The notes under the pieces are model-generated. The model worked only from the letters and a program-made list of their open reading frames with translations, was not told the origin of the DNA and did not search any database. Source: Eledone cirrhosa (taxonomy: Eukaryota). Taken from it: a stretch of 64,000 nt of DNA. Each line of letters opens with the position of its first letter. Positions within the stretch are counted from its first letter, which is position 1. The DNA lies in NCBI GenBank assembly GCA_964016885.1, contig CAXHJY010000589.1, positions 128,603-192,602 of the forward strand, given 5' to 3'. Position numbers and translations under genes: made by a program. Positions 2,401 through 64,000 of this stretch are shown here, one piece after another.

Positions 2401-2844
2401 GTGTGTATAATACAGTAAGTGCTGCAACTTAATTTGACAGCACCATAAATATATGCATGTATGTGTGTATACTGATATATGTGTATGTGTGGTGTGGTGT
2501 GGTGTGGTGTGGTGTGGTGTGGTGTGGTGTGGTGTGGTGTGGTGTGGTGTGGTGTGGTGTGGTGTGGTGTGTCTGTGTCTGTGTCTCTGTGTCTCTGTGT
2601 GTGTGTGTGTGTGTGTGTATGTGTCTGTGTGTGTGTGTCTGTGTGTATGTGTCTGTGTGTGTGTGTCTGTGTGTCTGTCTGTGTGTCTGTCTGTGTGTGT
2701 GTGTGTGTGTACTTGCCCGCGCACCCACACCTTCATACACTTATATAGTTAATATACTCACCAAACTAAGTACAATTGCACGCACGCGGTGAGTATTCAA
2801 TGTATGTAGTAGAGTGATTATTGTTCGAAGCGGATTCAGGGTTG

Positions 2845-4027
2845 GAGGCCATGCTTTGAAACATGGAGTTATGGCCCTTTACGATCTGAGTTCAAATCCC
2901 GCTGAGGTTAACTTTGCCTTTCATCCTTACGGGGGTCGATAAAATAAAGTACCAGTAATGCAGTGGGGTAATTGCTGGCCTTGTGCCTAAAGTAGAAACA
3001 ATTATTACCCAGTTTCTTGTATATCTATGATTTGGGGGCAGCAAAATGAAGGATGAAAAGGCTTCATTAGTTTACAAAGGTACCAAAGATGATATATATT
3101 AGTTAAGTAAAGATTCATTGGCAGTATCGGTAGAGGGTCGGACGCCATGCTTTCCAGCATAGTTACGTCCCTTTACAATCTGAGTTCAAATCCCGCCGAG
3201 GTTAACTTTGCCTTTCATCCTTACGGGGGTCGATAAAATAAAGTACCAGTAATGCACTGGGGTAATTGCTGGCCCCTTGTGCCTAAAGTAGAAACAATTA
3301 TTACCCAGTTTCTTGTATATCTATGATTTGGGGGCAGCAAAATGAAGGATGAAAAGGCTTCATTAGTTTACAAAGGTACCAAAGATGATATATATTAGTT
3401 AAGTAAAGATTCATTGGCAGTATCGGTAGAGGGTCGGACGCCATGCTTTCCAGCATAGTTACGTCCCTTTACGATCTGAGTTCAAATCCCGCCGAGGTTG
3501 ACTTTGCCTTTCATCCTTACGGGGTCGATAAAATAAAAAGTACCAGTAATGCACTGGGTAATTGCTGGCCTTGTGCCTAAAGTAGAAACAAGTATTTTAA
3601 TGTTGATAGGAGTAGTTTATAAAAAAAAGATATCTAGAAAGTTAGTGTTTCGAGGTTGATGTTGGTGATTTTTAAATCGAATTTCTTGAAAAATAACTGT
3701 TTCTACTTTATTTTATCGACCCTGTAAGGATGAAATGCAAAGTTAACCTCGACGAGATTTGAACTCAGACCATAAAGAAACGTAACTATGCTAGAAAGCA
3801 TAGCATCCAACCCTCTACCGATACTGCCAAGAATAAATAATTGTTTCTACGTTAGGCACAAGGCCAGCAATTACCCAGTGCATTACTGGTACTTTATTTT
3901 ATCGACTCCGTAAGGATGAAAGGCAAAGTCAACCTCGGCGGGATTTGAACTCGGATCGTAAAGGGATGTAACTATGCTGGAAAGTATGGCGTCCGACCCT
4001 CTACCGATACTGCCAATCCACCGCCCT
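2845..4027. mobile_element. Cluster of five family-1 tRNA-derived SINEs (three +, two -)
   Basis: Consensus GGCGGTGGATTGGCAGTATCGGTAGAG...GAGTTCAAATCCCGCCGAGGTTGACTTTGCCTTTCATCCTTACGGGGTCGATAAAATAAAGTACCAGT...TTGCTGGCCTTGTGCCTAAAGTAGAAAC with A/B boxes and an (ATT)n tail. Other copies near 70-290, 10555-10728, 12735-12922, 14546-14727, 17660-17850, 25915-26110, 29305-29458 and 40850-40937. Confidence 0.9.
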
Positions 4028-7186: not shown

Positions 7187-8246
7187 ATAATTGCCTTATG
7201 TTGTTTATTACATAACTATATATATATATATATATATATAACAAAGGAATTGTGGTAAGGAACCAGTTGGACCATAACGCACCAGAGTACTCAATACTTA
7301 GGGTAGTAGAGTGGGAAATAGGAAAAAAATATATACATATATAGGGGTTATATACATACATCGGTAGGGGTTCTCCTACATGGATATAAAGTAGTGGCCA
7401 TACTCGAAAACGAGTTGGCAGCCACCATGTATGTATGTATGTATGTATGTCTCTTAATTTCGAGTACATTTTTTTTGACCGGCCACCTTCCTGGTGGCAA
7501 GGTTGTAAAAGAAAAGAAATTGTCATCCCTTGAATCGCAAGAATGTTTTGCAAATTTTGAAGGTGCCAGCTATCGCAGCCATTTGTAGACTATGAATTAG
7601 GGAGCTGCGCTATGTATGTATGTATGTATGTATGTATGTATGTATGTATGTTCTTCCGAAAGTGTGTAAATATGTATATACACATGTACCGCGCGGTTAA
7701 ACCACTGGGAGTAAAGGACCCCTAGCCTTTGTCAGGGCATTCTTCTAGGAGAAGGCAACTCAGGTAACTGGGATAACTCTGATATAAAACCTGCGGCTCA
7801 GTAGTTACCGATGATGTTGATCTTTTCCTCTTTTCGGGTTATAGCTATTGTCGCTCAGAGAGTGGGATTGGCTCAGTGCACAGTCTTTCATTACTTTAAA
7901 AAATATCTTCACGCACAGGCATTGCACGATAGAATTAATAAATAATTATTAATAATGGTATATCGTGCAATGACCATACTCGATAATGAGGGGGAAGCCA
8001 TCATGTATGTATGTATGTATGTATCTGTCCGTGCATCTATCTGTCTTTCTACAAACCTATCCATCCATCGTCCCAACTTTCAACCCATACATCTCTCCGC
8101 CACACTAAACCAACAATAAAACATGACGTACACCGTTTCGAACAAATTTTATTTCGTTTGATTTTACTTCGTTTTAATCTATTTTATCTCCCTTTCTTTC
8201 TTGGAACAACACACAACAGCAAAACCTACAATAACAGTATTAACCT

Positions 8247-9009
8247 CTACAACGTACGTATTCTTGTTGGCAAACGTACAATAACGTCTACAACGTACGT
8301 ATTCATGTTGGCAAACGTACAATAACGTCTACAACGTACGTATTTTTGTTAGCAAACGTACAATAATGTCTACAACGTACGTATTCTTGTTGGAAAACGT
8401 ACAATAACGTCTACAACGTACGTATTTTTGTTAGCAAACGTACAATAATGTCTACAACGTACGTATTTTTGTTAGCAAACGTACAATAACGTCTACAACG
8501 TACGTATTCTTGTTGGCAAACGTACTATAACGTCTACAACGTACCTATTTTTGTTAGCAAACGTACAATAACGTCTACAACGTACGTATGTTTGTTAGCA
8601 AACGTACAATAATGTCTACAACGTACGTATTTTTAATCGCAAACGTACAATAACGTCTACAACGTACGTATTTTTGTTCGCAAACGTACAATAACGTCTA
8701 CAACGTACGTATGTTTGTTAGCAAACGCACAATAACGTGTTCAACGTAATGTTTTTGTTAGCAAACGTACAATAACGTCTACAACGTACGTATTTTTGTT
8801 CGCAAACGTACAATAAAGTCTACAACGCACAATAACGTCTACAACGTACGTATTTTTGTTCGCAAACGTACAATAAAGTCTACAACGCACAATAACGTCT
8901 ACAACGTACGTATTTTTGTTAGCAGACGTACAATAACGTGTTCAATGTACGTATTTTTGTTAGCAGACGTACAATAACGTGTTCAATGTACGTATTTTTG
9001 TTAGCAAAC
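8247..9009. repeat. 41-bp ACGT-rich minisatellite, about 18 copies
   Basis: Unit CTACAACGTACGTATTYTTGTTRGCAAACGTACAATAACGT. Confidence 0.95.
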
Positions 9010-12877: not shown

Positions 12878-13282
12878 AGCATGGCGTCCGACGCTCTACC
12901 GATACTGCCAATCCACCGCCCTAGCATGGCGTCCGACGCTCTACCGATACTGCCAATCTACCGCCCTAGCATGGCGTCCGACCCTCTACCAATACTGCCA
13001 ATCCACCGCCCTAGCATGGCGTCCGACCCTCTACCGATACTGCCAATCCACCGCCCTAGCATGGCGTCCGACGCTCTACCGATACTGCCAATCCACCGCC
13101 CTAGCATGGCGTCCGACCCTCTACCGATACTGCCAATCCACCGCCCTAGCATGGCGTCCGACGCTCTACCGATACTGCCAATCCACCACCCTAACATGGC
13201 GTCCGACGCTCTACCGATACTGCCAATCCGCCACCCTAACATGGCGTCCGACGCTCTACCGATACTGCCAATCCGCCGCCCT
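12878..13282. repeat. 45-bp tandem repeat of the SINE 5' end, 9 copies
   Basis: Unit AGCATGGCGTCCGACSCTCTACCGATACTGCCAATCCACCGCCCT, continuous with the SINE at 12735. Confidence 0.95.
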
Positions 13283-29192: not shown

Positions 29193-30952
29193 CAGATGTT
29201 CTCAAAGTGGGCACTACCAGACCCAACCCGGGGGCGTTGAGAAGATCCAGGGCGACGGGAGCTGGGGACTAAAAGGTCGCTATGAATTTATTATTTATAT
29301 TTGACGGCCCTTGTCATTCTGAGTTACGGCTCTTGCCATTCTGAGTTCAAATCCCGCGAAGGTTAACTTTGCCTTTCATCCTTACGGGATCGATAAAATA
29401 AAGTACCAGTAATGTACTGGGTAATTGCTGGCCTTGTGCCTAAAGTAGAAACAATTATTTTTATAGTATTGTATCGACAGTTGATCGACAAGATCCCAGA
29501 CCTCGTCAAATCGGACCGAGGAAAGAAATTAGCACAACCGCTGTTCGGCGTACTTGCGGAGGGCGTTCACACTGCGGTGTAGGTGCAACAAAAGGGGTCA
29601 CTGTGGAATTAGCGCTACCACTGTTCGGCGTACTTGCGCAGGGCGTTCACACTGCGGTGTAGGTGCAACAAAAGGGGTCACTGTGGAATTAGCGCTACCA
29701 CTGTTCGGCGTACTTGCGGAGGGCGTTCACACTGCGGTGTAGGTGCAACAAAAGGGGTCACTGTGGAATTAGCGCTACCACTGTTCGGCGTACTTGCGCA
29801 GGGCGTTCACACTGCGGTGTAGGTGCAACAAAAGGGGTCACTGTGGAATTAGCGCTACCACTGTTCGGCGTACTTGCGGAGGGCGTTCACACTGCGGTGT
29901 AGGTGCAACAAAAGGGGTCACTGTGGAATTAGCGCTACCACTGTTCGGCGTACTTGCGGAGGGCGTTCACACTGCGGTGTAGGTGCAACAAAAGGGGTCA
30001 CTGTGGAATTAGCGCTACCACTGTTCGGCGTACTTGCGGAGGGCGTTCATACTGCGGTGTAGGTGCAACAAAAGGGGTCACTGTGGAATTAGCGCTACCA
30101 CTGTTCGGCGTACTTGCGGAGGGCGTTCATACTGCGGTGTAGGTGCAACAAAAGGGGTCACTGTGGAATTAGCGCTACCACTGTTCGGCGTACTTGCGGA
30201 GGGCGTTCATACTGCGGTGTAGGTGCAACAAAAGGGGTCTTAGTAGAAGTAGCACAGGCGTGAGTTTTACGGTGTCAATAACACGGAAACGTACACAGGG
30301 CCCGGATTTGCGCGTGATGAAAGCACGAAGCATCAACAGGGCGCCGACAAAAATTTTAAGGTCCTCCTCATGTCCTCAATCCCCAGAAAATGGTCCTGCT
30401 TAAAAGTAAGTGATGTGTTTTCTGTTAAATAAACCTAATTTTTAACGAAATATTATACGCTACTTACGATGTTTAAGTAGCGTTTATATTGAAAATAAAA
30501 ATGGCATGTAATGCCCAATGTTAATTCGTAAATTTCCCAGAAACCATCAATGGAATCGGATTTTTTTTTGTCCACAGCAATGCGAGGGAACTAATTAATG
30601 TGTGCTGCAAATTTCGAGGAAATCGGCTGGATTATCTTTAAGTTACGCCTCAAAAAAGCCTTAAAATGCGGTTTTTCGACTATGGCAGAAAACGTTAAAC
30701 TCTTTTTAGCCCATTGCACTTCAAGAAATATAAGTAACGCATGTGTAAAGTTTGAAAAAATTCGGTCGGGTACTTCTCGAGTTTTAGGGATTTACAGACA
30801 GACAGACATCCTCTGTTTTATATATATAGATAAATAAAAAATATATAATATTTATTTATTATATTTTATTTACAATTTGTGTATAGGCAGGTCTCTCTGG
30901 AAATAGGGTTGGGGGCAAAAAGGGTTTGGCCCAAAAAGTTTGAGAATCTCTA
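29193..30952. mobile_element. hAT (Charlie-like) MITE expanded by nested insertions
   Basis: Imperfect TIRs CAGATGTTCTCAAA / TTTGAGAATCTCTA; 8-bp TSD CTTTAGAG (29185-29192) / CTCTAGAG (30953-30960). Confidence 0.7.
29527..30239. repeat. GC-rich 80-bp minisatellite, about 8.9 copies
   Basis: Unit AATTAGCGCTACCACTGTTCGGCGTACTTGCGGAGGGCGTTCACACTGCGGTGTAGGTGCAACAAAAGGGGTCACTGTGG. Confidence 0.97.
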
Positions 30953-31141: not shown

Positions 31142-32077
31142 TGAAAAAATAAAATGGATTATTGTACAGTTGACAATATTATTAGTAAAAGTCGTAAACA
31201 TTTTTGGCCAAGAGTCGCGGTGAGGACGCTTGTGTTGCGATATTTGCCTTCAATTGCGGAAGAAACGACTGGTTAATATTCCCATAATGTATGTATATAT
31301 GTAATTTATGGTCCCGTGACTCCTGATAGAGACGTAGAGGCGCCATATTGACATATGGCGTTTCTTGAACATTTTAAGCCTAGCGGATACCATCCTTCTC
31401 TAGACCTAAATACAGCAGATTTCTTCCAGAGAAAGATAGAAAGTGAGAGAGAGGAAATGAGAAAGAGATATAGAGGAAGAATCGACCTCAGTACTTGACT
31501 GGTACTTTTTTTATCGACCTCGAAAGGATGAAAGGCAAAGTTGACTTCGGCGCGATTTGAACACAGAGAGCAGAGAGCTGGAACAAATCCCACAAAGCAT
31601 TCTATCCGACCTTCTAACGACTCTGCCAATTCGCCGCCTTATTCCCACAAAACCAGTAGAAAATTTGTCAAAGTACTCTGTGTACACTTGACTCTAATGC
31701 CGCAGTACATTTAACCCAACATGAAAAAAACTGAATTGTGGACATAATTGTTTCTACTTTAGGCACAAGGCCAGCAATTACCACAGTGCATTACTGATAC
31801 TTTATTTTATCGACCCCGCAAGGATGAAAGGCAAAGTCAACCTCGGCGGGATTTGAACTCAGATCGTAAAGGGACGTAATTATGCTGGAAAGCATGGCGT
31901 CCGACCCTCTACCGACACTGCCAATCCACCAATAATTGTTTCTATTTTAGGCACAAGGCCAGCAATTACCCAGTGCATTACTGGTACTTTATTTTATCGA
32001 CCCCGTAAGGATGAAAGGCAAAGTCAACCTCGGCGGGATTTGAACTCAGATTGTAAAGGGACGTAACTATGCTGGAA

Positions 32078-32392
32078 AGCATGGTGTCCGACCCTCTACC
32101 GATACTGCCAATCCACTGCCCTAATATGGTGTCCGACCCTCTACCGATACTGCCAATCCACCACCCTAACATGGTGTCCGACCCTCTACCGATACTGCCA
32201 ATCCACCACCCTAACATGGTGTCCGACCCTCTACCGATACTGCCAATCCACCGCCCTAACATGGTGTCCGACCCTCTACCGATACTGCCAATCCACTGCC
32301 CTAACATGGTGTCCGACCCTCTACCGATACTGCCAATCCACCACCCTAACATGGTGTCCGACCCTCTACCGATACTGCCAATCCACCACCCT
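32078..32392. repeat. 45-bp tandem repeat of the SINE 5' end, 7 copies
   Basis: Same register as 12878-13282 with its own variants (GGTGTCC, CTAAC). Confidence 0.95.
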
Positions 32393-33826
32393 GAATTGTG
32401 GACATAATGTGTCTGGAAAATAGTCCTGATCACGAATGTGTGTGAATAAATATTTTACAGCTTTTTTTTTATATTTTTTTTTTTTTTTTTTAAATTACAC
32501 GCATAAACCTGGCTAATCTTTCAATATTTTAAGTTTCACTATGTGCTTTCATTTTTCTAGATAATATATTTTTTTTCTTAATAATAAGAGTCTTCTCAAT
32601 TGTGAATTGATCGATAGGGGAAGTCTTTCTTCCTCTTCGACCACTTTGTCCCCACAACCCTTTCAGCAATGAGTCCTCAAACACTCCCTCCAGCTAGTCC
32701 TGTCAGAAGCAACAGTCTTCAATTGATCCAGCTGAATCACCAAACGAAACCAGCCAAGCTCATGGATGTTATCCAACCATCTTGCTCGGGGTTTACCCCT
32801 GGGTCTTTCTTTAAACTTATTAATTGATCTATTAATTTTGTAACACTAAAATGCTGAAACAAATTCAGCATAAACAAAAATTTCGTAGTAAGTGGAATAG
32901 CAGTGAATCTTCTGAAAAACGTTTAATTGCAGTTACAAATAATTGTTTCTACTTTTGGCACAAGGCCAGCAATTACCTCAGTGCATTACTGGTACTTTAT
33001 TTTATCGACCCCGTAAGGATGAAAAGCAAAGTTAACCTCGGCGGGATTTGAACTCAGACCATAAAGGGGCGTAACTCTATGCGTCAAAGCATGGTGTCCG
33101 ACCCTCTACCGATACTGCCAATCCACCGTTTGGTTCATTCTAAATTTTGTGAGTGTCTTGTTTGGTTTTATCTTTCATTGTTTAGGTGAATTGGCAGTAT
33201 CGGTAGAGGGTCGGACGCCATGCTTTCCAGCATAGTTACGTCCCTTTACGATCTGAGTTCAAATCCCGCCGAGGTTGACTTTGCCTTTCATCCTTACGTG
33301 ATCGATAAAATAAAGTACCAGTCACGCACTGTGGTCAATTTAATCGACTTTCCCCTCCCCCAAAATTGCTGGCCTTGTGCCTAAATAGGAAACTATTATT
33401 TAGACCGACATATGGCGGTGAATTGGCAGTATCGGTAGAGGTTCGGACGCCATGCTTTGCAGCATAGAGTTACGTCCCTTTATGATCTGAGTTCAAATCC
33501 CGTCAAGGTTAACTTTGCCTTTCATCCTTACGGGGTCGATAAAATAAAGTACCAGTCACGCACTGGGGTCGACTTAATCGACTTTCCCCTCACCCAAAAT
33601 TGCTGGCCTTGTGCCTTTACTAGAAATCATTATTTAGACCGACAGTTTATAAAGACTTACACCAGTTAATTAGAGACAGATGAAAGAAAAAACAATTCAA
33701 AATTCCTAATAACTGCACAATTACGAGGTTAACTAATTGGAAGAATAATGAGCCAATTGCTTAAATAAATAAAACATCAAATAAATAAAACATCATTTTC
33801 AAATTAGGAGAAACGTTGAAAAGTTC

Positions 33827-37522: not shown

Positions 37523-37985
37523 ACTAATTTTGTATGATTAATTTAGGATTACTATATAGCAATTATTCGCAAACAGAAGGTACTTGGCTCCCAGCCGTAG
37601 AATTGTACATAAAAACTACTCTTCTAGACTTAATCCAGTTTGAAACTAAACAGTTATTGAGGGTTGAAATACTTGTTCAATGTTAATACGGTGTTCGGGT
37701 GAAACATGAGTAGATGACAATTGAAAATACGGAAGAACTGAGGAAACTTGGGATTGCAAAGGTAGAAATGTAACTTGGTTCTCTGGGAACCACTGCTAGA
37801 TAACTAAAATTAGATTGAATGGTTGTTTATAATTAGAAATTGTAATATTTCGAGAGTAAGGCTTGTATATTCTCTCAATCAGCTTTAATTAACATTCAGT
37901 GATAAAAGACTAAAAATACATCAATACATTTTTATTTTTAACTGTAAATCTTCATAAGAAAAGACGTGTGTGTGTGTGTGTGTGC

Positions 37986-38032
<47 letters not shown>

Positions 38033-38035
<3 letters not shown>

Positions 38036-40154
38036 TTTATAAAGAACTCAGGAAAAATTATAAAAAAAACAAATAATGCGGCACTTACCAATATCAACAA
38101 CAAAACACACAACATAGTAAATAAGCTCAATATTGAAGATAGAACTGAACCTTTGGCACTGAAAAAACCAGACTTTAACCTAAAAGATCATAAATCTAAC
38201 TTTAACTCTAATCCTTCTATAAGACTTATATGCCCTTCCAAATCTGACATTGGCATCATCAGTAAAACAATTTTAGATAGAGTCATCCCACAATTAAGAA
38301 AACATGTTAATTTACCACTCTGGGAAAACACATCCCAAGTAATTAACTGGTTTACCAATATTAGAAATAAATCATCTGCTTCATTTCTACAATTCGATGT
38401 AGATGCTTATTATCCCTCTATATCACCCATACTCCTGAACAAAGCCTTGATATTTGCCAAAAATAGATCAAACTTAACTATGGATGACATTAATATTATT
38501 ACGCACGCTAGACAAACACTACTAGAATTTCAGAAGGAATACTGGACCAGAAATACATGTAGTAATCTATTCGACATTACTATGGGCTCTAGTGATTCTG
38601 CCCAAATTACCGATCTTGTGGGCCTCTTTCTTCTATTTAACATAAATGCTTCTTTTCCCCACCTTAAAGGTGGTTTATATCGTGATGACTGTCTTCTTCT
38701 TTCCACTAACCTTAGCCTATCAGAAATTGAAAAAAATAAAAAACTTAGAACTTTCCTCAAAGACTATTATAGTCTCACTATTACATTTGAAAACACCAGT
38801 AAAATAGTTAATTTCCTTGATATAACTTTAGACTTATCTACGGGTATCTACCAACCTTACCATAAACCTAACCAACACTTACATTACATACACTCACAAT
38901 CCAATCACCCTAGATCTATCCTTAAAAACCTAGCATATAATATCTCACGCAGAATTTCTAACCCTTCATCTAACCAGGATGTATTCGATAAAAATGCGAC
39001 CTTTTATAACGAAGCTTTAGCTAGAAGCGGCCACAGAAACAAATTAGTCTATATACCTTGTACCAATAATACTACAAACATACAACCCACTATTACCAAC
39101 AAACACCAAATGAAAAACACACCTAAATGCCACTCACACTATACCCCAAAATACCAACTTAAAACTTGATTTCTCTACCACTTCTCACATAAAATATAAT
39201 AACTTTCAAAAAACCATTCATCCTAATACTCCAATATATGTTAACAAGATTACTAACAAATTCCTAATAATCAGACTAAAACACCTAAATAAGTTAATCT
39301 AACTAAACCTATATATAATAAATTCACTAATATTAACTCTCTTAGTAAACATCCTGATACATCGTATAAATATAAAAAACATCGAAACCGTAATAGACGA
39401 GTTACTTGGTATAATGCTCCATTTAATCTACAAATTAAAGATAATATCCCTAAAAACTTTTACTATCCTAGAGAAAAACTTCCCGCCAAACCATAAATAC
39501 CATCAAATTTTAAATAGATCAACTGTCAAATTTTCCTACTCCACTACCAAAAATATACAACAAAATATAAGTGCCTACAATGCATATAAATGTAAAAAAA
39601 AAACCATGAATATACCACCAACACATCAAACTAACCATAATACTAAAATAAATCGCAACAAACCACCATTTCCTTCACATATAACAAGTCGAGTAAATTC
39701 CACACCAAATTTGACTAACTCCCCTGATATAATATCCACGAATGCTTGTAACTGTAGAAACAAAGGAAATTTCCCATTAAAAGGAAATTGTCTTATTAAT
39801 AACATAGTATATAAATGTAAAATTAGCACTAAGGACTCAACTTATTCATATATAGGAGCTACTTCTAACCAATTTAAAGTAAGATTTAATACCCACAAAC
39901 AGTTTTTAAAATGCCGCATTAGCTAATACAACATCCTTGGCTGAAATAATAATTATAGAGAAAAGAATATGACCTGGAGTGTGATCAAAATGGCTACCCC
40001 TTATCAAAATAACAGTTATGAGTGTAGATTATGTTCCCAAGAACTTTTTGAAATAATGAAATCTAAGGATATCCTATTAAATAAGCGACAAGAATTAATT
40101 ATATCGTGCAATCATAGAATTAGAAGAACTTTCAAATATTATAAACCTAATTAA
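38033..40154 (+). mobile_element. 5'-truncated, frameshifted Penelope-like retroelement (RT plus C-terminal GIY-YIG endonuclease)
   Basis: RT motifs IRLICPSKSDIG, FLQFDVDAYYPSIS, FDITMGSSDSAQITDLVGL, GGLYRDD (YRDD at 38678-38689), VNFLDITLDL, YHKPN..YIHSQSNHP. After frameshifts: RRVTWYNAPF, FSYSTTKN, CNCRNKGNFPLKGNCL..NIVYKC..YIGATSNQFKVRFNTH and a terminal CRLC...LLNKRQE...C.H. Starts abruptly at a (TA)n tract. Confidence 0.93.
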
Positions 40155-42603: not shown

Positions 42604-43888
42604 TTGCCTTTCATCTTTACGGGGTCGATAAAATAAAGTACCAGTAATGTACTGGGGGTAATTGCTGGCCTTGTGCCAAAAGTAGAAACAATTTGTGCCA
42701 AAAGTAGAAACAATTATTATTATTATTATTATAGGGTAGTGGATTGGCAGTATCGGTAGAGGGTCGGACGCCATGCTTTGCAGCATAGAGTTACGTCCCT
42801 TTACGGTCTGAGTTCAAATCCCGCCGAGGTTGACTTTGCCTTTCATCCTTACGGGGGTCGATAAAATAAAGTACCAGTAATGTACTGGGTATTTGCTGGC
42901 CTTGTGCCTAAAGTAGAAACAATTATTATTATTATTATTATTATTTTATATTTTTATATTTTCATTGTTAAATTAGTCTTGCCATTGTGCACTTTTACTC
43001 CACCTTATTGTAAACCCCCACTGTCCCTGTCTTTGTATTGTCCCCTACATGTCGGCCCTGGTGGCTAATAAATGAAATGATTATTATTATTATTATTATG
43101 CCCATTCACTAGCAATACGTTAAATATTGCATTTCATCAAAGATTTCGAAGTGACGTAGCTGGATCTTGCAGTAAACATATTCCTACTACTATCCACCCA
43201 GATTAAAAGGCAACTCAAATAATTATTTCTACTTTTGGCACAAGGCCAGCAATTATCCCAGTGCATTACTGGTACTTTATTTTATCGACCCCGTAAGGAT
43301 GAAAGGCAAAGTCAACCTCGGCGAGATTTGAACTCAGATCGTAAAGGGACGTAACTATGCTGGAAAGCATGGCGTCTGACCCTACAATAATAGAGGTGAG
43401 GTAGAAACGATATATGTTGGAAGACAAGATGCAACGACCTCACCTCAAACTTTGAAATCTTTCTGATGAAATGCAGTATTTAATGTATAATGAATGGGCA
43501 TAATGATAATTATTTCTACTTTAGGCACAAGGCCAGCAATTACCCAGTACATTACTGGTACTTTTATTTTATCGACCCCGTAAGGATGAAAGGCAAAGTT
43601 AACCTCGGCGGGATTTGAACTCAGAATAGAAAGGGCCGTAACTCTATGCGTCAAATCATGGCGTCCTACCCTCTACCAATCCACCACTCTCTAATGATAA
43701 TTGTTTCTACTTTAGGCACAAGGCCAGCAATTACCCAGTAGATTACTGGTACTTTTATTTTATCGACCCCGTAAGGATGAAAGGCAAAGTTAACCTCGGC
43801 GGGATTTGAACTCAGAATAGAAATGGCCGTAACTATGCGTCAAAGCATGGCGTCCGACCCTCTACCAATACTGCCAATCCACCACCCT
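42604..43888. mobile_element. Cluster of five family-1 SINEs
   Basis: + copies 42604-42720 and 42735-42925; - copies 43218-43383, 43508-43690 and 43697-43888. Confidence 0.88.
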
Positions 43889-44436: not shown

Positions 44437-44438
<2 letters not shown>

Positions 44439-44982
44439 CAATAACTTCCTATATGTCGTCTGCAACTAAACTATGACAACAATAACTTCCTATATGTCGT
44501 CTGCAACTAAACTATGACAACAATAACTTCCTATATGTCGTCTGCAACTAAACTATGACAATAACTTCCTATATGTCGTCTGCAACTAAACTATGACAAT
44601 AACTTCCTATATGTCGTCTGCAACTAAACTATGACAATAACTTCCTATATGTCGTCTGCAACTAAACTATGACAATAACTTCCTATATGTCGTCTGCAAC
44701 TAAACTATGACAACAATAACTTCCTATATGTCGTCTGCAACTAAACTATGACAACAATAACTTCCTATATGTCGTCTGCAACTAAACTATGACAACAATA
44801 ACTTCCTATATGTCGTCTGCAACTAAACTATGACAACAATAACTTCCTATATGTCGTCTGCAACTAAACTATGACAACAATAACTTCCTATATGTCGTCT
44901 GCAACTAAACTATGACAACAATAACTTCCTATATGTCGTCTGCAACTAAACTATGACAACAATAACTTCATATATGTCGTCT
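44437..44982. repeat. 41/38-bp minisatellite, about 13.5 copies
   Basis: Unit (AAC)AATAACTTCCTATATGTCGTCTGCAACTAAACTATGAC. Confidence 0.95.
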
Positions 44983-50409: not shown

Positions 50410-50537
50410 GAAGTTCTATTTAAATTGTTGGGATACAACAAGCAAATATTTTTATAACTGATATAAAGCACTCAACAATTATTGGAGTAAAAATACGATA
50501 TATTAACAAATGGAAACTATATTTATAAAACCATATT

Positions 50538-50602
50538 TATTTCATTATACATATTTCAAGGACACCAAGTTACATTATGGTGTGCTTTCATCAGATAAAA
50601 TA
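50538..50602 (-). ncRNA. Hammerhead ribozyme, TATGTA family
   Basis: Nearly identical to 20707-20771. Confidence 0.8.
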
Positions 50603-50765
50603 TAATATAGAGCAGTTTTATAAATAAATATTGACATACCCTTAAAGAATGCGAGCATTTCTGTTGGAAGCTCCGGGAGCATATGTGTATATATATATAC
50701 ATGTATATATATATATATATATGTGTATATATATATATATGTGTATATATATATATATATGTGTG

Positions 50766-50796
<31 letters not shown>

Positions 50797-51171
50797 GTGT
50801 GTATATATATATATATGTATATATATGTATATATATGTATATATATATACGATATATTAACAAATGGAAACTATATTTATATATGTATTTATATATGTAT
50901 GTATATATATGTATATATATATATATATGTGTGTATATATATATATATGTATATATATATAAATATGTATATATATATATGTGTATATATATATATATAT
51001 ATGTGTATATATATATATATATATGTGTATATATATATATATATATGTGTATATATATATATATATGTGTATATATATATATATATGTGTATATATATAT
51101 ATATATATGTGTATATATATATATATATATGTGTATATATATATATATATATGTGTATATATATATATATA

Positions 51172-51414
<243 letters not shown>

Positions 51415-51415
51415 G

Positions 51416-51455
<40 letters not shown>

Positions 51456-51492
51456 TGTGTATATATATGTGTATATATATATATATGTGTAT

Positions 51493-53186
51493 ATTTAACT
51501 CACTCAATATGCAAATTAGGCTGCTCAGCCGTTAATTTTCATAAGGAAAGTATATACTTTCGAACGTTCAACTATCTGGCAGATGGGTAAACGGTGCTGA
51601 TGATAGCTAACAAGCTTGAAACTAGTACATCGTTCCTGTGTCAGTGTTGAACAAAAAGGTGACGTGGTTGCCTTAACACCGTATGGCATAAATTCAGGCT
51701 GTTCAGTTTGTTTACAAACGAACAAAGCGACGTTAGCGCCGCTAAACTGATACGTGCATATATGTATGTGTACCTGTATGCATATGTATATATATATGTA
51801 TATATATATATATGTGCATGCTACTGTACGTCTGTAAACATATATGTATGTACGTATACATGCATACTTACATTTAAGTAAGTGCCATACTAAGAGTGAG
51901 AAATGAAATTTCGTTTTCATTTTGTTTCAATTTATCGTTTTCGGTATGCCTGACCGATTTAACTCACTCAATATGCAAATTAGGCTGCTCAGCCGTTAAT
52001 TTTCATAAGGAAAGTATATACTTTCGAACGTTCAACTATCTGGCAGATGGGTAAACGGTGCTGATGATAGCTAACAAGCTTGAAACTAGTACATCGTTCC
52101 TGTGTCAGTGTTGAACAAAAAGGTGACGTGGTTGCCTTAACACCGTATGGCATAAATTCAGGCTGTTCAGTTTGTTTACAAACGAACAAAGCGACGTTAG
52201 CGCCGCTAAACTGATACGTGCATATATGTATGTGTACCTGTATGCATATGTATATATATATGTATATATATATATATATATGTGCATGCTACTGTACGTC
52301 TGTATACATATATGTATGTACGTATACATGCATACTTACATTTAAGTAAGTGCCATACTAAGAGTGAGAAATGAAATTTCGTTTTCATTTTGTTTCAATT
52401 TATCGTTTTCGGTATGCCTGACCGATTTAACTCACTCAATATGCAAATTAGGCTGCTCAGCCGTTAATTTTCATAAGGAAAGTATATACTTTCGAACGTT
52501 CAACTATCTGGCAGATGGGTAAACGGTGCTGATGATAGCTAACAAGCTTGAAACTAGTACATCGTTCCTGTGTCAGTGTTGAACAAAAAGGTGACGTGGT
52601 TGCCTTAACACCGTATGGCATAAATTCAGGCTGTTCAGTTTGTTTACAAACGAACAAAGCGACGTTAGCGCCGCTAAACTGATACGTGCATATATGTATG
52701 TGTACCTGTATGCATATGTATATATATATGTATATATATATATATATATGTGCATGCTACTGTACGTCTGTATACATATATGTATGTACGTATACATGCA
52801 TACTTACATTTAAGTAAGTGCCATACTAAGAGTGAGAAATGAAATTTCGTTTTCATTTTGTTTCAATTTATCGTTTTCGGTATGCCTGACCGATTTAACT
52901 CACTCAATATGCAAATTAGGCTGCTCAGCCGTTAATTTTCATAAGGAAAGTATATACTTTCGAACGTTCAACTATCTGGCAGATGGGTAAACGGTGCTGA
53001 TGATAGCTAACAAGCTTGAAACTAGTACATCGTTCCTGTGTCAGTGTTGAACAAAAAGGTGACGTGGTTGCCTTAACACCGTATGGCATAAATTCAGGCT
53101 GTTCAGTTTGTTTACAAACGAACAAAGCGACGTTAGCGCCGCTAAACTGATACGTGCATATATGTATGTGTACCTGTATGCATATG

Positions 53187-53218
<32 letters not shown>

Positions 53219-55666
53219 TGTGCATGCTACTGTACGTCTGTATACATATATGTATGTACGTATACATGCATACTTACATTTAAGTAAGTGCCATACTAAG
53301 AGTGAGAAATGAAATTTCGTTTTCATTTTGTTTCAATTTATCGTTTTCGGTATGCCTGACCGATTTAACTCACTCAATATGCAAATTAGGCTGCTCAGCC
53401 GTTAATTTTCATAAGGAAAGTATATACTTTCGAACGTTCAACTATCTGGCAGATGGGTAAACGGTGCTGATGATAGCTAACAAGCTTGAAACTAGTACAT
53501 CGTTCCTGTGTCAGTGTTGAACAAAAAGGTGACGTGGTTGCCTTAACACCGTATGGCATAAATTCAGGCTGTTCAGTTTGTTTACAACGAACAAAGCGAC
53601 GTTAGCGCCGCTAAACTGATACGTGCATATATGTATGTGTACCTGTATGCATATGTATATATATATATATATATATGTGCATGCTACTGTACGTCTGTAT
53701 ACATATATGTATGTACGTATACATGCATACTTACATTTAAGTAAGTGCCATACTAAGAGTGAGAAATGAAATTTCGTTTTCATTTTGTTTCAATTTATCG
53801 TTTTCGGTATGCCTGACCGATTTAACTCACTCAATATGCAAATTAGGCTGCTCAGCCGTTAATTTTCATAAGGAAAGTATATACTTTCGAACGTTCAACT
53901 ATCTGGCAGATGGGTAAACGGTGCTGATGATAGCTAACAAGCTTGAAACTAGTACATCGTTCCTGTGTCAGTGTTGAACAAAAAGGTGACGTGGTTGCCT
54001 TAACACCGTATGGCATAAATTCAGGCTGTTCAGTTTGTTTACAAACGAACAAAGCGACGTTAGCGCCGCTAAACTGATACGTGCATATATGTATGTGTAC
54101 CTGTATGCATATGTATATATATATGTATATATATATATATATATGTGCATGCTACTGTACGTCTGTATACATATATGTATGTACGTATACATGCATACTT
54201 ACATTTAAGTAAGTGCCATACTAAGAGTGAGAAATGAAATTTCGTTTTCATTTTGTTTCAATTTATCGTTTTCGTTATGCCTGACCGATTTAACTCACTC
54301 AATATGCAAATTAGGCTGCTCAGCCGTTAATTTTCATAAGGAAAGTATATACTTTCGAACGTTCAACTATCTGGCAGATGGGTAAACGGTGCTGATGATA
54401 GCTAACAAGCTTGAAACTAGTACATCGTTCCTGTGTCAGTGTTGAACAAAAAGGTGACGTGGTTGCCTTAACACCGTATGGCATAAATTCAGGCTGTTCA
54501 GTTTGTTTACAAACGAACAAAGCGACGTTAGCGCCGCTAAACTGATACGTGCATATATGTATGTGTACCTGTATGCATATGTATATATATATGTATATAT
54601 ATATATATATATGTGCATGCTACTGTACGTCTGTATACATATATGTATGTACGTATACATGCATACTTACATTTAAGTAAGTGCCATACTAAGAGTGAGA
54701 AATGAAATTTCGTTTTCATTTTGTTTTAATTTATCGTTTTCGGTATGCCTGACCGATTTAACTCACTCAATATGCAAATTAGGATGCTCAGCCGTTAATT
54801 TTCATAAGGAAAGTATATACTTTCGAACGTTCAACTATCTGGCAGATGGGTAAACGGTGCTGATGATAGCTAACAAGCTTGAAACTAGTACATCGTTCCT
54901 GTGTCAGTGTTGAACAAAAAGGTGACGTGGTTGCCTTAACACCGTATGGCATAAATTCAGGCTGTTCAGTTTGTTTACAAACGAACAAAGCGACGTTAGC
55001 GCCGCTAAACTGATACGTGCATATATGTATGTGTACCTGTATGCATATGTATATATATATGTATATATATATATATATATGTGCATGCTACTGTACGTCT
55101 GTATACATATATGTATGTACGTATACATGCATACTTACATTTAAGTAAGTGCCATACTAAGAGTGAGAAATGAAATTTCGTTTTCATTTTGTTTCAATTT
55201 ATCGTTTTCGGTATGCCTGACCGATTTAACTCACTCAATATGCAAATTAGGCTGCTCAGCCGTTAATTTTCATAAGGAAAGTATATACTTTCGAACGTTC
55301 AACTATCTGGCAGATGGGTAAACGGTGCTGATGATAGCTAACAAGCTTGAAACTAGTACATCGTTCCTGTGTCAGTGTTGAACAAAAAGGTGACGTGGTT
55401 GCCTTAACACCGTATGGCATAAATTCAGGCTGTTCAGTTTGTTTACAAACGAACAAAGCGACGTTAGCGCCGCTAAACTGATACGTGCATATATGTATGT
55501 GTACCTGTATGCATATGTATATATATATGTATATATATATATATATATGTGCATGCTACTGTACGTCTGTATACATATATGTATGTACGTATACATGCAT
55601 ACTTACATTTAAGTAAGTGCCATACTAAGAGTGAGAAATGAAATTTCGTTTTCATTTTGTTTTAAT
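51493..55666 (+). repeat. Tandem array of ~468-bp units (about 8.9 copies), each with a hammerhead ribozyme (retrozyme-like)
   Basis: Near-identical units begin ATTTAACTCACTCAATATGCAAATTAGG. CTGATGA cores lie at 51597, 52061, 52529, 52997, 53467, 53924, 54392, 54860 and 55328 (periods 464, 468, 468, 470, 457, 468, 468, 468). Length differences come mostly from an internal TA/TG microsatellite. Both flanks are (TA)n. Confidence 0.95.
51576..51644 (+). ncRNA. Type I hammerhead ribozyme, array unit 1 (same motif in all nine units)
   Basis: AACGGTG-CTGATGA-tAGC taacaa GCTt-GAAA-CTAG-TA-CATCGTT. Stem I is 7 bp (one G-U), core CUGAUGA/GAAA, helix III is the palindrome A-CUAG-U, GUA cleavage predicted after 51627. 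Stem I extends through TGGG/CCTG and CTGGCA/TGTCAG with bulges. Confidence 0.9.
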
Positions 55667-55667
55667 G

Positions 55668-55701
<34 letters not shown>

Positions 55702-55763
55702 TGTGTATATATATATATATGTATATATATATATTTATATATATGTGTATATATATATATGTG

Positions 55764-55797
<34 letters not shown>

Positions 55798-55973
55798 TAT
55801 GTGTATATATATATATATATATGTGTATACATATATATATGTATATATATATGTGTATACATATATATATGTATATATATATATATATGTGTATATATAA
55901 ATATATGTATATATATATATATATATATGTGTATACATATATATATGTATATATATATATATATATATATGTG

Positions 55974-56007
<34 letters not shown>

Positions 56008-56027
56008 TGTGTATATATATATATATG

Positions 56028-56082
<55 letters not shown>

Positions 56083-56091
56083 ATACATATA

Positions 56092-56130
<39 letters not shown>

Positions 56131-56187
56131 ATACATATATATATGTATATATATATATATATATGTGTATATATATATATATATGTA

Positions 56188-56841
<654 letters not shown>

Positions 56842-56926: not shown

Positions 56927-57012
<86 letters not shown>

Positions 57013-57202
57013 AGCGGTTGCTGGTCCGGCAGAAATTAGAATTTGGATTTAATGCTCTGAAATAGCGATATATATGTGAAGATAAACACAGAATATTCGA
57101 AAATATTCTGTATCTTTATAATAAACATTTTGAAGACCTAATCGCTATAGAATAGAATACATCACGTATTACAATTTGAGATTCTCGATAAAAGCAAGGG
57201 AA

Positions 57203-57245
57203 GTAACCTACGCGTTTCATTCTTATTAGAAATCATCAGGATTAC
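57203..57245 (-). ncRNA. Hammerhead ribozyme, CGCG family (left arm of fold-back)
   Basis: Reverse complement of 57377-57419. Confidence 0.8.
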
Positions 57246-57376
57246 ATATCCAGTGCTTTTATCGAGAATTCTAATTTCTGCCGGACCGGCAACCGCTCTT
57301 TCAAACCAGTTCCTGTACACAGCTAAGTATTCTATAAGTCTCTAGCTGTGTCATTCTCGATAAAATCACTGGATAT

Positions 57377-57419
57377 GTAATCCTGATGATTTCTAATAAG
57401 AATGAAACGCGTAGGTTAC
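57377..57419 (+). ncRNA. Minimal hammerhead ribozyme, CGCG family
   Basis: GTAATC-CTGATGA-tTTCT aata AGAAt-GAAA-CGCG-TA-GGTTAC, enclosed by an outer CTCGATAAAA/TTTTATCGAG stem. Confidence 0.85.
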
Positions 57420-57580
57420 TTCCCTTGCTTTTATCGAGAATCTCAAATTGTAATACGTGATGTATTCTATTCTATAGCGATTAGGTCTTCAAAATGTTTA
57501 TTATAAACATACAGAATATTTTCGAATATTCTGTGTTTATCTTCACATATATATCGCTATTTCAGAGCATTAAATCCAAA

Positions 57581-64000
<6,420 letters not shown>

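What the first reader, a model, noticed from the sequence alone, without database searches (positions are those of the whole stretch)
51493..55666. Nine-unit tandem array with a hammerhead ribozyme in every ~468-bp monomer: candidate cephalopod retrozyme / circular-RNA source
Seen: nine near-identical units, each with AACGGTG-CTGATGA-TAGCTAACAAGCTT-GAAA-CTAG-TA-CATCGTT, i.e. a complete type I HHR core, paired stems I and II, a palindromic helix III and a GUA site, all on the + strand. Established: HHR-bearing tandem repeats (newt satellite 2, Schistosoma Sm-alpha, cricket pDo500, metazoan non-LTR retrozymes) are transcribed as multimers and self-cleave to monomers, some of which circularise; short palindromic helix III motifs work as dimers. 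Inference: read-through here would release ~457-470-nt monomers, adjacent units could supply the dimer partner, and the non-integer copy number between (TA)n flanks fits insertion of a rolling-circle cDNA by a Penelope-type RT/EN. I do not know of this family being described in octopods.
Basis: partly seen in the sequence, partly recalled or inferred. Interest (0 to 1): 0.93.

Follow-up and report, generated by a model that had tools for sequence, protein, structure and literature searches.

The report
Self-cutting RNA repeat, Penelope-mobilised retrozyme
This is one of thousands of copies of a young jumping repeat, probably in a cephalopod, in which every unit encodes a self-cutting RNA; its ends show it is pasted in by a Penelope-type transposon enzyme, which makes an open question about how those enzymes work testable.

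Summary
Confirmed. Nine units (8 full, 1 partial; period 457-470 bp) each carry a type I hammerhead. It is weak on paper: a U.U mismatch closes helix II, and helix III is a short palindrome. The array is one insertion of a dispersed non-LTR retrozyme family: 8,299 exact ribozyme copies, and 43,463 matches to the wider motif against 1 control.

Head-to-head insertions use one site per arm (47 of 47 pairs). A second family in the window (25 of 28) and a young, intact Neptune-like Penelope element with the same ribozyme type (12 of 12) follow the same rule. This is the Penelope 'tail' signature. Reverse transcription runs through the cut site, and arrays look multimeric and homogeneous at birth. 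That favours an RNA circle as template (about 60%); an uncut multimer is not excluded. Cleavage, expression and circles were not shown, and no helper is tied by sequence.

Verdict: new member of a known kind, with unusually clear mechanistic footprints.

The parts
51494..55666 (+). One-armed insertion of retrozyme family A: 8 full units plus a ninth of 442 bp; 5' end at an arbitrary unit position, 3' end at the family's long site
   Evidence: long site defined
51578..51643 (+). Type I hammerhead of unit 1 with extended helix I (core helix I 51590-51596 with 51628-51634; CUGAUGA at 51597; U.U at base of helix II; palindromic helix III; predicted cut after 51627). Repeats cut after 52091, 52559, 53027, 53497, 53954, 54422, 54890, 55358
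   Evidence: extended helix read from the sequence
52092..52559 (+). Predicted 468-nt monomer from cut to cut (putative circle)
   Evidence: inference, no RNA seen
52214..52345 (+). Long A/U-rich microsatellite hairpin inside each unit (unit 2 shown); length varies between units and subfamilies
52340..52348 (+). Short reverse-transcription start site (unit position 387, unit 2 shown), in the loop of a small hairpin
   Evidence: 718 genomic ends into (TA)n; fold
52399..52405 (+). Long reverse-transcription start site (unit position 446, unit 2 shown); the 59 nt between the two sites are the Penelope-type tail
   Evidence: 1,018 genomic ends into (TA)n
55611..55666 (+). Tail at the 3' end of this insertion
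50688..51493 (.). Left (TA)n-rich target microsatellite
55667..56190 (.). Right (TA)n-rich target microsatellite
57010..57581 (.). Separate head-to-head insertion of retrozyme family B (312-bp unit elsewhere); hammerheads at 57239 (-) and 57383 (+), same U.U and palindromic helix III design
27985..28332 (-). Solo 3' end (pseudo-LTR) of the Neptune-like Penelope element, hammerhead at 28180, ending at its long site in (TA)n; coordinates approximate

Best explanation
A non-autonomous Penelope-dependent retroelement (non-LTR retrozyme). Step 1 (inferred): arrays are transcribed as multimers; the promoter is unknown. Step 2 (inferred from structure and literature): neighbouring hammerheads pair through the palindromic helix III and cut out monomers of about 468 nt, which a host ligase closes into circles; the single, weak hammerhead in a monomer circle re-cuts poorly. 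Step 3 (genomic footprint shown, enzyme inferred): a Neptune-like RT/GIY-YIG protein, probably a dimer, nicks both strands of (TA)n and primes cDNA at two internal sites 59 nt apart, one site per strand. Step 4 (favoured): each cDNA runs round the template for a variable number of turns, through the ribozyme site. The two cDNA ends are joined head to head; if only one extends, a one-armed array like this one results. Step 5 (shown in a minority of loci): later local duplication changes unit number.
For: Dispersal. Two fixed ends: 1,018 and 718. One long and one short end in 47 of 47 close pairs, all divergent, P about 2e-15 if sites were chosen independently. Family B 25 of 28 two-armed loci, none with both arms at one site. 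Autonomous element 12 of 12 plus L156. This matches the two RT start sites and both-strand extension measured for a Poseidon element (PMC11167929). No run-off at the cut: 8 pattern matches, 5 of them true junctions, against 23 at a control position; 2 of 70 junction ends within 3 nt. 28 of 41 long-site and 36 of 41 short-site arms cross the cut; 18 and 21 cross it twice. In 38 of 40 fetched young loci, 111 variant calls are single-unit, 7 fixed and 1 mosaic; three variants are fixed across both arms (5/5, 5/5, 9/9 units). Structure kept across families: 11 of 16 pairs change on both sides, 85% paired against 35-45% when slid. Intact young helper candidates exist.
Against: No cleavage, RNA or circle was observed. 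Two loci show variants mirrored in both arms but not in all units (L072, L080), which fits a heterogeneous multimer template or later conversion. In vitro, ribozyme-dead Poseidon RNA inserted normally and uncut RNA was the main substrate. Eight of nine Xenopus retrozyme dimers did not cleave. The minimum-energy fold pairs the core with helix III, and helix I pairs 1.1-1.3 have probability 0.18-0.28 in the circle. Family A shares no sequence with the candidate helper outside the ribozyme design. Covariation rests on only three families and their subfamilies.
Confidence: 0.62

Rival explanations
1. Same element and same Penelope enzyme, but the template is an uncut linear multimer from a few long homogeneous source arrays; the hammerhead acts late, rarely, or only trims the RNA.
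For: Uncut RNA was the dominant substrate in vitro. Mirrored mosaic variants in L072 and L080. The ribozyme is doubly weakened; in the young subfamily U1.7 can be held by A2.7, which halved turnover in an engineered hammerhead (PMC11875169 passages; alignment). All end rules hold equally for this model.
Against: Daughters could never be longer than their source, yet arms reach about 15 units. Mirrored single-unit variants were seen in none of 38 young loci, while three variants were fixed across both arms. No foreign insert longer than about 20 nt was seen at the junctions that could be resolved. The core stays invariant across families.
Confidence: 0.27
2. Short pseudo-LTR-like pieces insert as about one unit and expand on the spot by unequal crossover (model of preprint 10.64898/2026.07.22.740005).
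For: Mosaic private variants in some long arrays (L074, L161). L166 and L167 share one junction but differ in unit number. Units 7 and 9 of this array share a substitution.
Against: Both arms are often multi-unit in nearly mutation-free loci (L077, L175, L176). 111 single-unit against 1 mosaic variant call. The 4,211-bp autonomous unit also occurs as full tandems.
Confidence: 0.06
3. The hammerhead is a non-functional relic carried along by a Penelope-mobilised repeat.
For: Rfam score far below threshold; folding z-score -0.96; many Xenopus examples inactive.
Against: Core and U1.7 are invariant in 17 of 17 aligned sequences while helices change on both sides and N7 and loop 2 vary. The 17 were picked by a pattern that fixes part of the core, but helix III, U1.7 and the pairing were free.
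Confidence: 0.05

Closest known systems
Metazoan non-LTR retrozymes (Cervera and de la Pena 2020, PMC7229834): axolotl Rtz_331/Rtz_353, Mytilus, Acropora; newt satellite 2
   Same: Non-coding, low-GC tandem units with a type I hammerhead in each; thousands of copies. The weak palindromic helix III resembles HHR_Amex1; the U.U at the base of helix II resembles HHR_Amex2.
   Different: Both weaknesses occur in one motif. The unit (468 bp, up to about 520) is above the 170-400 nt RNAs reported there. Inverted arms, a tail and two fixed ends are not mentioned in that main text (0 hits for 'inverted', 'tail'). Expression is shown there, not here.
Penelope-like elements, Neptune clade; Poseidon PAc in vitro (PMC11167929); structure review in PMC8557442
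   Same: Tail between two internal RT start sites, inverted 5'-truncated arm, partial tandems, (TA)n bias, hammerhead upstream of the start sites.
   Different: No ORF. Tail of 59 nt against 30-40 bp. The literature says the tail is 'often' at one end only and found no strand difference in vitro; here the two arms use different sites in 47 of 47 pairs.
Vertebrate retrozymes as pseudo-LTR derivatives (preprint 10.64898/2026.07.22.740005)
   Same: Retrozymes co-occur with, and depend on, Penelope-like elements.
   Different: That link rests on distribution and pLTR homology, with local expansion proposed; no mollusc is named in its main text. Here the link rests on insertion footprints, no pLTR homology was found, and arrays look multimeric at birth.
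Non-autonomous Chlamys elements such as MRC1 (PMC8557442 passage)
   Same: Non-coding Penelope-dependent elements with multicopy head-to-tail insertions.
   Different: They share 3' sequence with their helpers, and most Chlamys elements lack canonical hammerheads.

Membership tests
Type I hammerhead ribozyme | Core CUGANGA, GAAA and NUH in type I order | tested here: met
   9 of 9 units; invariant in the 17-sequence alignment
Type I hammerhead ribozyme | Helices I-III supported by covariation | tested here: met
   11 of 16 pairs change on both sides; score 0.557 against at most 0.144 when slid; only three families
Type I hammerhead ribozyme | Watson-Crick pair closing helix II at the core (10.1-11.1) | tested here: not met
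   U.U in all three families; a known variant in axolotl HHR_Amex2, which cleaves weakly as a monomer
Type I hammerhead ribozyme | Rfam hammerhead model at gathering score | tested here: not met
   None; HH9 18.5 bits against 52
Type I hammerhead ribozyme | Site-specific self-cleavage | not testable with these tools
   Needs in vitro transcription
Non-LTR retrozyme | Short tandem units with a type I hammerhead in each, at least two consecutive | tested here: met
Non-LTR retrozyme | Non-coding, GC under 50% | tested here: met
   GC 0.36; only two unit-internal frames of 133-135 aa on the minus strand, not kept in the other units
Non-LTR retrozyme | Dispersed multicopy family | tested here: met
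   8,299 exact copies; the first 100 fall in about 32 loci over 80 Mb
Non-LTR retrozyme | Expressed as linear and circular monomer RNA | tested here: inconclusive
   Could not be judged from the runs offered
Penelope-mobilised element | Tail between two fixed internal 3' ends | tested here: met
Penelope-mobilised element | Inverted 5'-truncated arm and partial tandems | tested here: met
   the window's own array has one arm
Penelope-mobilised element | Intact RT plus GIY-YIG helper in the genome | tested here: met
   Many of 131 scored matches sit in a 775-codon open frame at 97-99% identity; domains
Penelope-mobilised element | Sequence shared with the helper's pseudo-LTR | tested here: not met
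   No significant match of A or B to the 4,211-bp unit; matches in 50 GIY-YIG loci looked like inserted retrozyme copies or related hammerhead repeats; other helper families were only sampled
Autonomous Penelope-like element | Encodes RT and endonuclease | tested here: not met
   No such ORF in the array

The most novel reading that the evidence does not exclude
One Penelope RT/endonuclease dimer holds a single RNA circle, and its two subunits prime the two target strands at two different fixed sites: a double rolling-circle insertion. The 4,211-bp autonomous element uses the same cut-and-close cycle, and the retrozymes are its miniature parasites, recognised by structure rather than by sequence. 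This would explain the Penelope tail, inverted arms, tandems and the hammerhead in one scheme, and would predict abundant circular RNAs in cephalopod tissues.
Probability: 0.35. Interest if true: 0.8.

Novelty: new member of a known kind. Interest (0 to 1): 0.58.

Why it matters
How Penelope-like elements finish insertion, and what their hammerhead is for, is open: the one in vitro study found the ribozyme dispensable, and two papers disagree on whether retrozyme arrays come from circles or from local expansion. This genome holds thousands of very young retrozyme insertions and intact helper candidates. It gives a strict rule (one start site per arm) and a ready pair of enzyme and 468-nt template to test circle against linear copying. 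If expressed like the mussel and axolotl relatives, these would also be a large unannotated source of circular RNA in a cephalopod.

Tried and rejected
Expression: no RNA holder listed. Four contig runs were laid; X4 and X5 each hold one roughly monomer-sized contig (470 and 486 nt, depth 7-10) but their kind is unknown, so they are not used either way.

The DNA search with family A found nothing, not even itself; common words are skipped, so it is uninformative.

snRNA-type promoter: the unit has an octamer-like word, and I recalled such a promoter for newt satellite 2; that paper is not held. U2 upstream regions from 3 loci match unit A no better than shuffles (fractions 0.15-0.35), and the word also fits an RNA hairpin. 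Not supported.

Linear self-cut monomer as template: rejected. Simple fold-back copying of one arm by the other: either arm can be the longer (19 against 22) and lengths are uncorrelated (rho 0.16, p 0.31).

The formal haplotype tally is only partly informative: in family B, 82 of 124 shared variant-locus pairs are fixed, 29 single and 13 mosaic, with imperfect CpG labelling.

Not used: summary arm and junction figures (spoiled by microsatellite hits, redone) and the target-structure energy (badly specified). The script mislabelled L270 as short because of one substitution; the printed sequence shows the long end.

The Rfam microRNA hits are the AT hairpin. Protein searches named only bivalves and bivalve-symbiont assemblies, so they did not place the host. 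No earlier findings.

Full report
OBSERVATION. The array is real. Nine hammerhead cores lie 457-470 bp apart from 51597 to 55328; the ninth unit stops after 442 bp in (TA)n. Each has CUGAUGA, GAAA and a GUA site in type I order, with the predicted cut after 51627 and its repeats. Rfam does not call it and the region folds no better than shuffles.

FAMILY. The exact 45-nt motif occurs 8,299 times in the 3.0-Gb genome, control 0. A looser pattern with U.U and GUA occurs 43,463 times, control 1. It covers older subfamilies of this family (A; periods about 422-520) and a second family, B (310-312 bp), one insertion of which lies in the window at 57010-57581. A and B share only the ribozyme. In 17 chosen hammerheads from A, B and a Penelope element, the core, the U.U and U1.7 are invariant, while 11 of 16 pairs change on both sides. 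That is three families, not 17 independent events, and the picking pattern fixed part of the core.

ENDS. Copies do not end at the ribozyme site (unit position 134/135; unit = window 51958-52425). They end at position 387 or 446, running into (TA)n over an AT overlap. For the young haplotype there are 1,018 long ends and 718 short ends. I compared the 100 long and 71 short ends listed for C1 up to 313.7 Mb; short ends listed beyond that range were left out. 47 pairs lie within 10 kb. All 47 are one long plus one short, pointing apart; P is about 2e-15 under independent choice. The other 53 long and 24 short ends had no listed partner. Family B shows the same in 25 of 28 two-armed loci (one of the 25 is a duplicate locus); in 3, including the window's, one arm ends elsewhere; none has both arms at one site. 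These loci were top-scoring matches, not a random draw.

HELPER. The genome has many RT plus GIY-YIG frames. One family has the CxxxxCxxC linker that PMC8557442 gives for Neptune and Nematis (clade not tested by a tree). It has a hammerhead of the same design about 390 nt after the stop and two 3' ends about 55 nt apart in (TA)n. It is young: the 131 scored matches other than the query are 97-99% identical, many in a 775-codon open frame, and it forms full tandems of 4,211 bp from ribozyme to ribozyme. 12 of 12 inverted copies fetched have one long and one short end. PMC11167929 showed that the Penelope tail is the stretch between two internal RT start sites, and that both target strands are cut and extended by a protein predicted to be a dimer. 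So mobilisation of A by a Penelope-type enzyme is close to certain (about 0.9, my estimate). Which family does it is open: there is no shared sequence with this one, and at least five other families were seen.

TEMPLATE. A self-cut linear monomer is excluded. Junctions at the cut are not enriched (8 matches, 5 true, against 23 at a control; 2 of 70 ends from 35 of 45 loci, about 1.4 expected). Most arms cross the site, and 39 of 82 cross it twice. Arrays seem multimeric at birth: in 38 of 40 young loci, 111 variant calls are single-unit (some are junction artefacts), 7 fixed, 1 mosaic, and three variants are fixed through both arms. Fixation of a new variant in all units is what a one-molecule circle gives. 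Against this: L072 and L080 have variants mirrored in both arms but not in all units; L074 and L161 are mosaic; L166 and L167 show unit number changing after insertion; and uncut RNA was the working substrate in vitro. Homogeneous long source arrays would leave most of the same marks. I put the circle at about 0.6 and the uncut multimer at about 0.27.

ACTIVITY. Not shown. PMC7229834 reports that axolotl motifs with a weak helix III, or with U.U, cleave poorly alone and well as dimers. That suits a multimer that cuts and a circle that persists (inference). The young subfamily of A has A at 2.7, able to pair U1.7, where older A and B have U. In an engineered hammerhead, changing A2.7 to U doubled turnover. 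The 2026 preprint found only 1 of 9 Xenopus dimers active.

HOST. Molluscan hemocyanin genes are present. One functional unit scores 659 and 650 bits against single units of 4yd9 and 1js8, and 460 or less against 8tnv and 1lnl. From recall the first two are squid and octopus and the others gastropod; different units are being compared, so this is a class-level pointer only.

LITERATURE SEEN. PMC7229834: passages and part 4 of 6; supplement unreadable, and it may list cephalopods. Preprint 10.64898/2026.07.22.740005: parts 1-3 of 5 and passages; supplements closed. PMC11167929: parts 1-2 of 4. PMC8557442, PMC11875169, PMC6155905, PMC13282606: passages. Searches for hammerhead+octopus, retrozyme (8), ribozyme+cephalopod (42), Penelope+octopus+genome+satellite (43), octopus retrotransposons (73) and inverted/tail terms (78) listed no report of a cephalopod retrozyme. 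Word counts were 0 for octopus and cephalopod in both retrozyme papers and 0 for hammerhead and ribozyme in a 2026 Octopus vulgaris repeat annotation. Subscription papers and repeat databases were not searched.

VERDICT. A real, young, high-copy non-LTR retrozyme: a new member of a published class, probably new for cephalopods. Its value lies in the strict one-site-per-arm rule shared with an intact Penelope element, which turns the circle-versus-linear question into a direct experiment. Interest 0.58.

Noticed in passing
window 57010-57581: Second retrozyme family (B, 310-312 bp) as a head-to-head pair; 182 matches from 40 of 507 candidate places, 95-100% identical; two fixed ends about 30-40 nt apart.
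   Followed up: yes
L277 (G000:C4:322581000-322590999); window about 27985-28332 (-): Young Neptune-like Penelope element, 4,211-bp unit with two frames (476 and 775 codons stop to stop), in full tandems and inverted pairs; a solo 3' end lies in the window.
   Followed up: partly
window 37958-39926 (+): Broken RT and GIY-YIG-like frames of another, more distant Penelope-like family (weak match).
   Followed up: no
L146:161-241, L150:6577-6701, L157:4242-4322, L067:1115-1195: A third U.U hammerhead family with a longer, non-palindromic helix III, 74-75% like family B upstream of the core.
   Followed up: no
L112:2687-2768, L085:125-207, L156:461-540, L157:242-322, L121:25, L153:1858: Further hammerhead-like motifs of other repeat families.
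   Followed up: no
window 6768, 7056, 7134, 17334, 20763, 20964, 25479, 27215, 27564, 42089, 50594: Several dispersed repeats with a CUGANGA core, some in inverted pairs; possibly minimal Penelope hammerheads.
   Followed up: no
window 52214-52345 and equivalents: Each monomer has a long, nearly perfect A/U hairpin; a possible substrate for A-to-I editing or Dicer if expressed (inference).
   Followed up: no
L200, L201, L202 (C10): Three copies of an older A subfamily share a changed cut site that looks inactive; probably one duplicated locus.
   Followed up: no
window 50500-50690 and 50854-50880: A 28-nt word recurs on both sides of the start of the left microsatellite and elsewhere in the window; it belongs to one of the dispersed core-bearing repeats.
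   Followed up: partly
L181, L183, L184, L196: U2 snRNA genes lie in tandem arrays (about 2.2 and 2.5 kb period) and share a conserved upstream block about 40-60 nt before the start, a likely proximal element.
   Followed up: no
window 2838-3596, 8241-9009, 12878-13282, 29527-30239, 31744-32392, 33185-33644, 43501-43869, 44437-44982: Many other tandem arrays with periods of 41-296 bp, several built from one SINE-like repeat.
   Followed up: no
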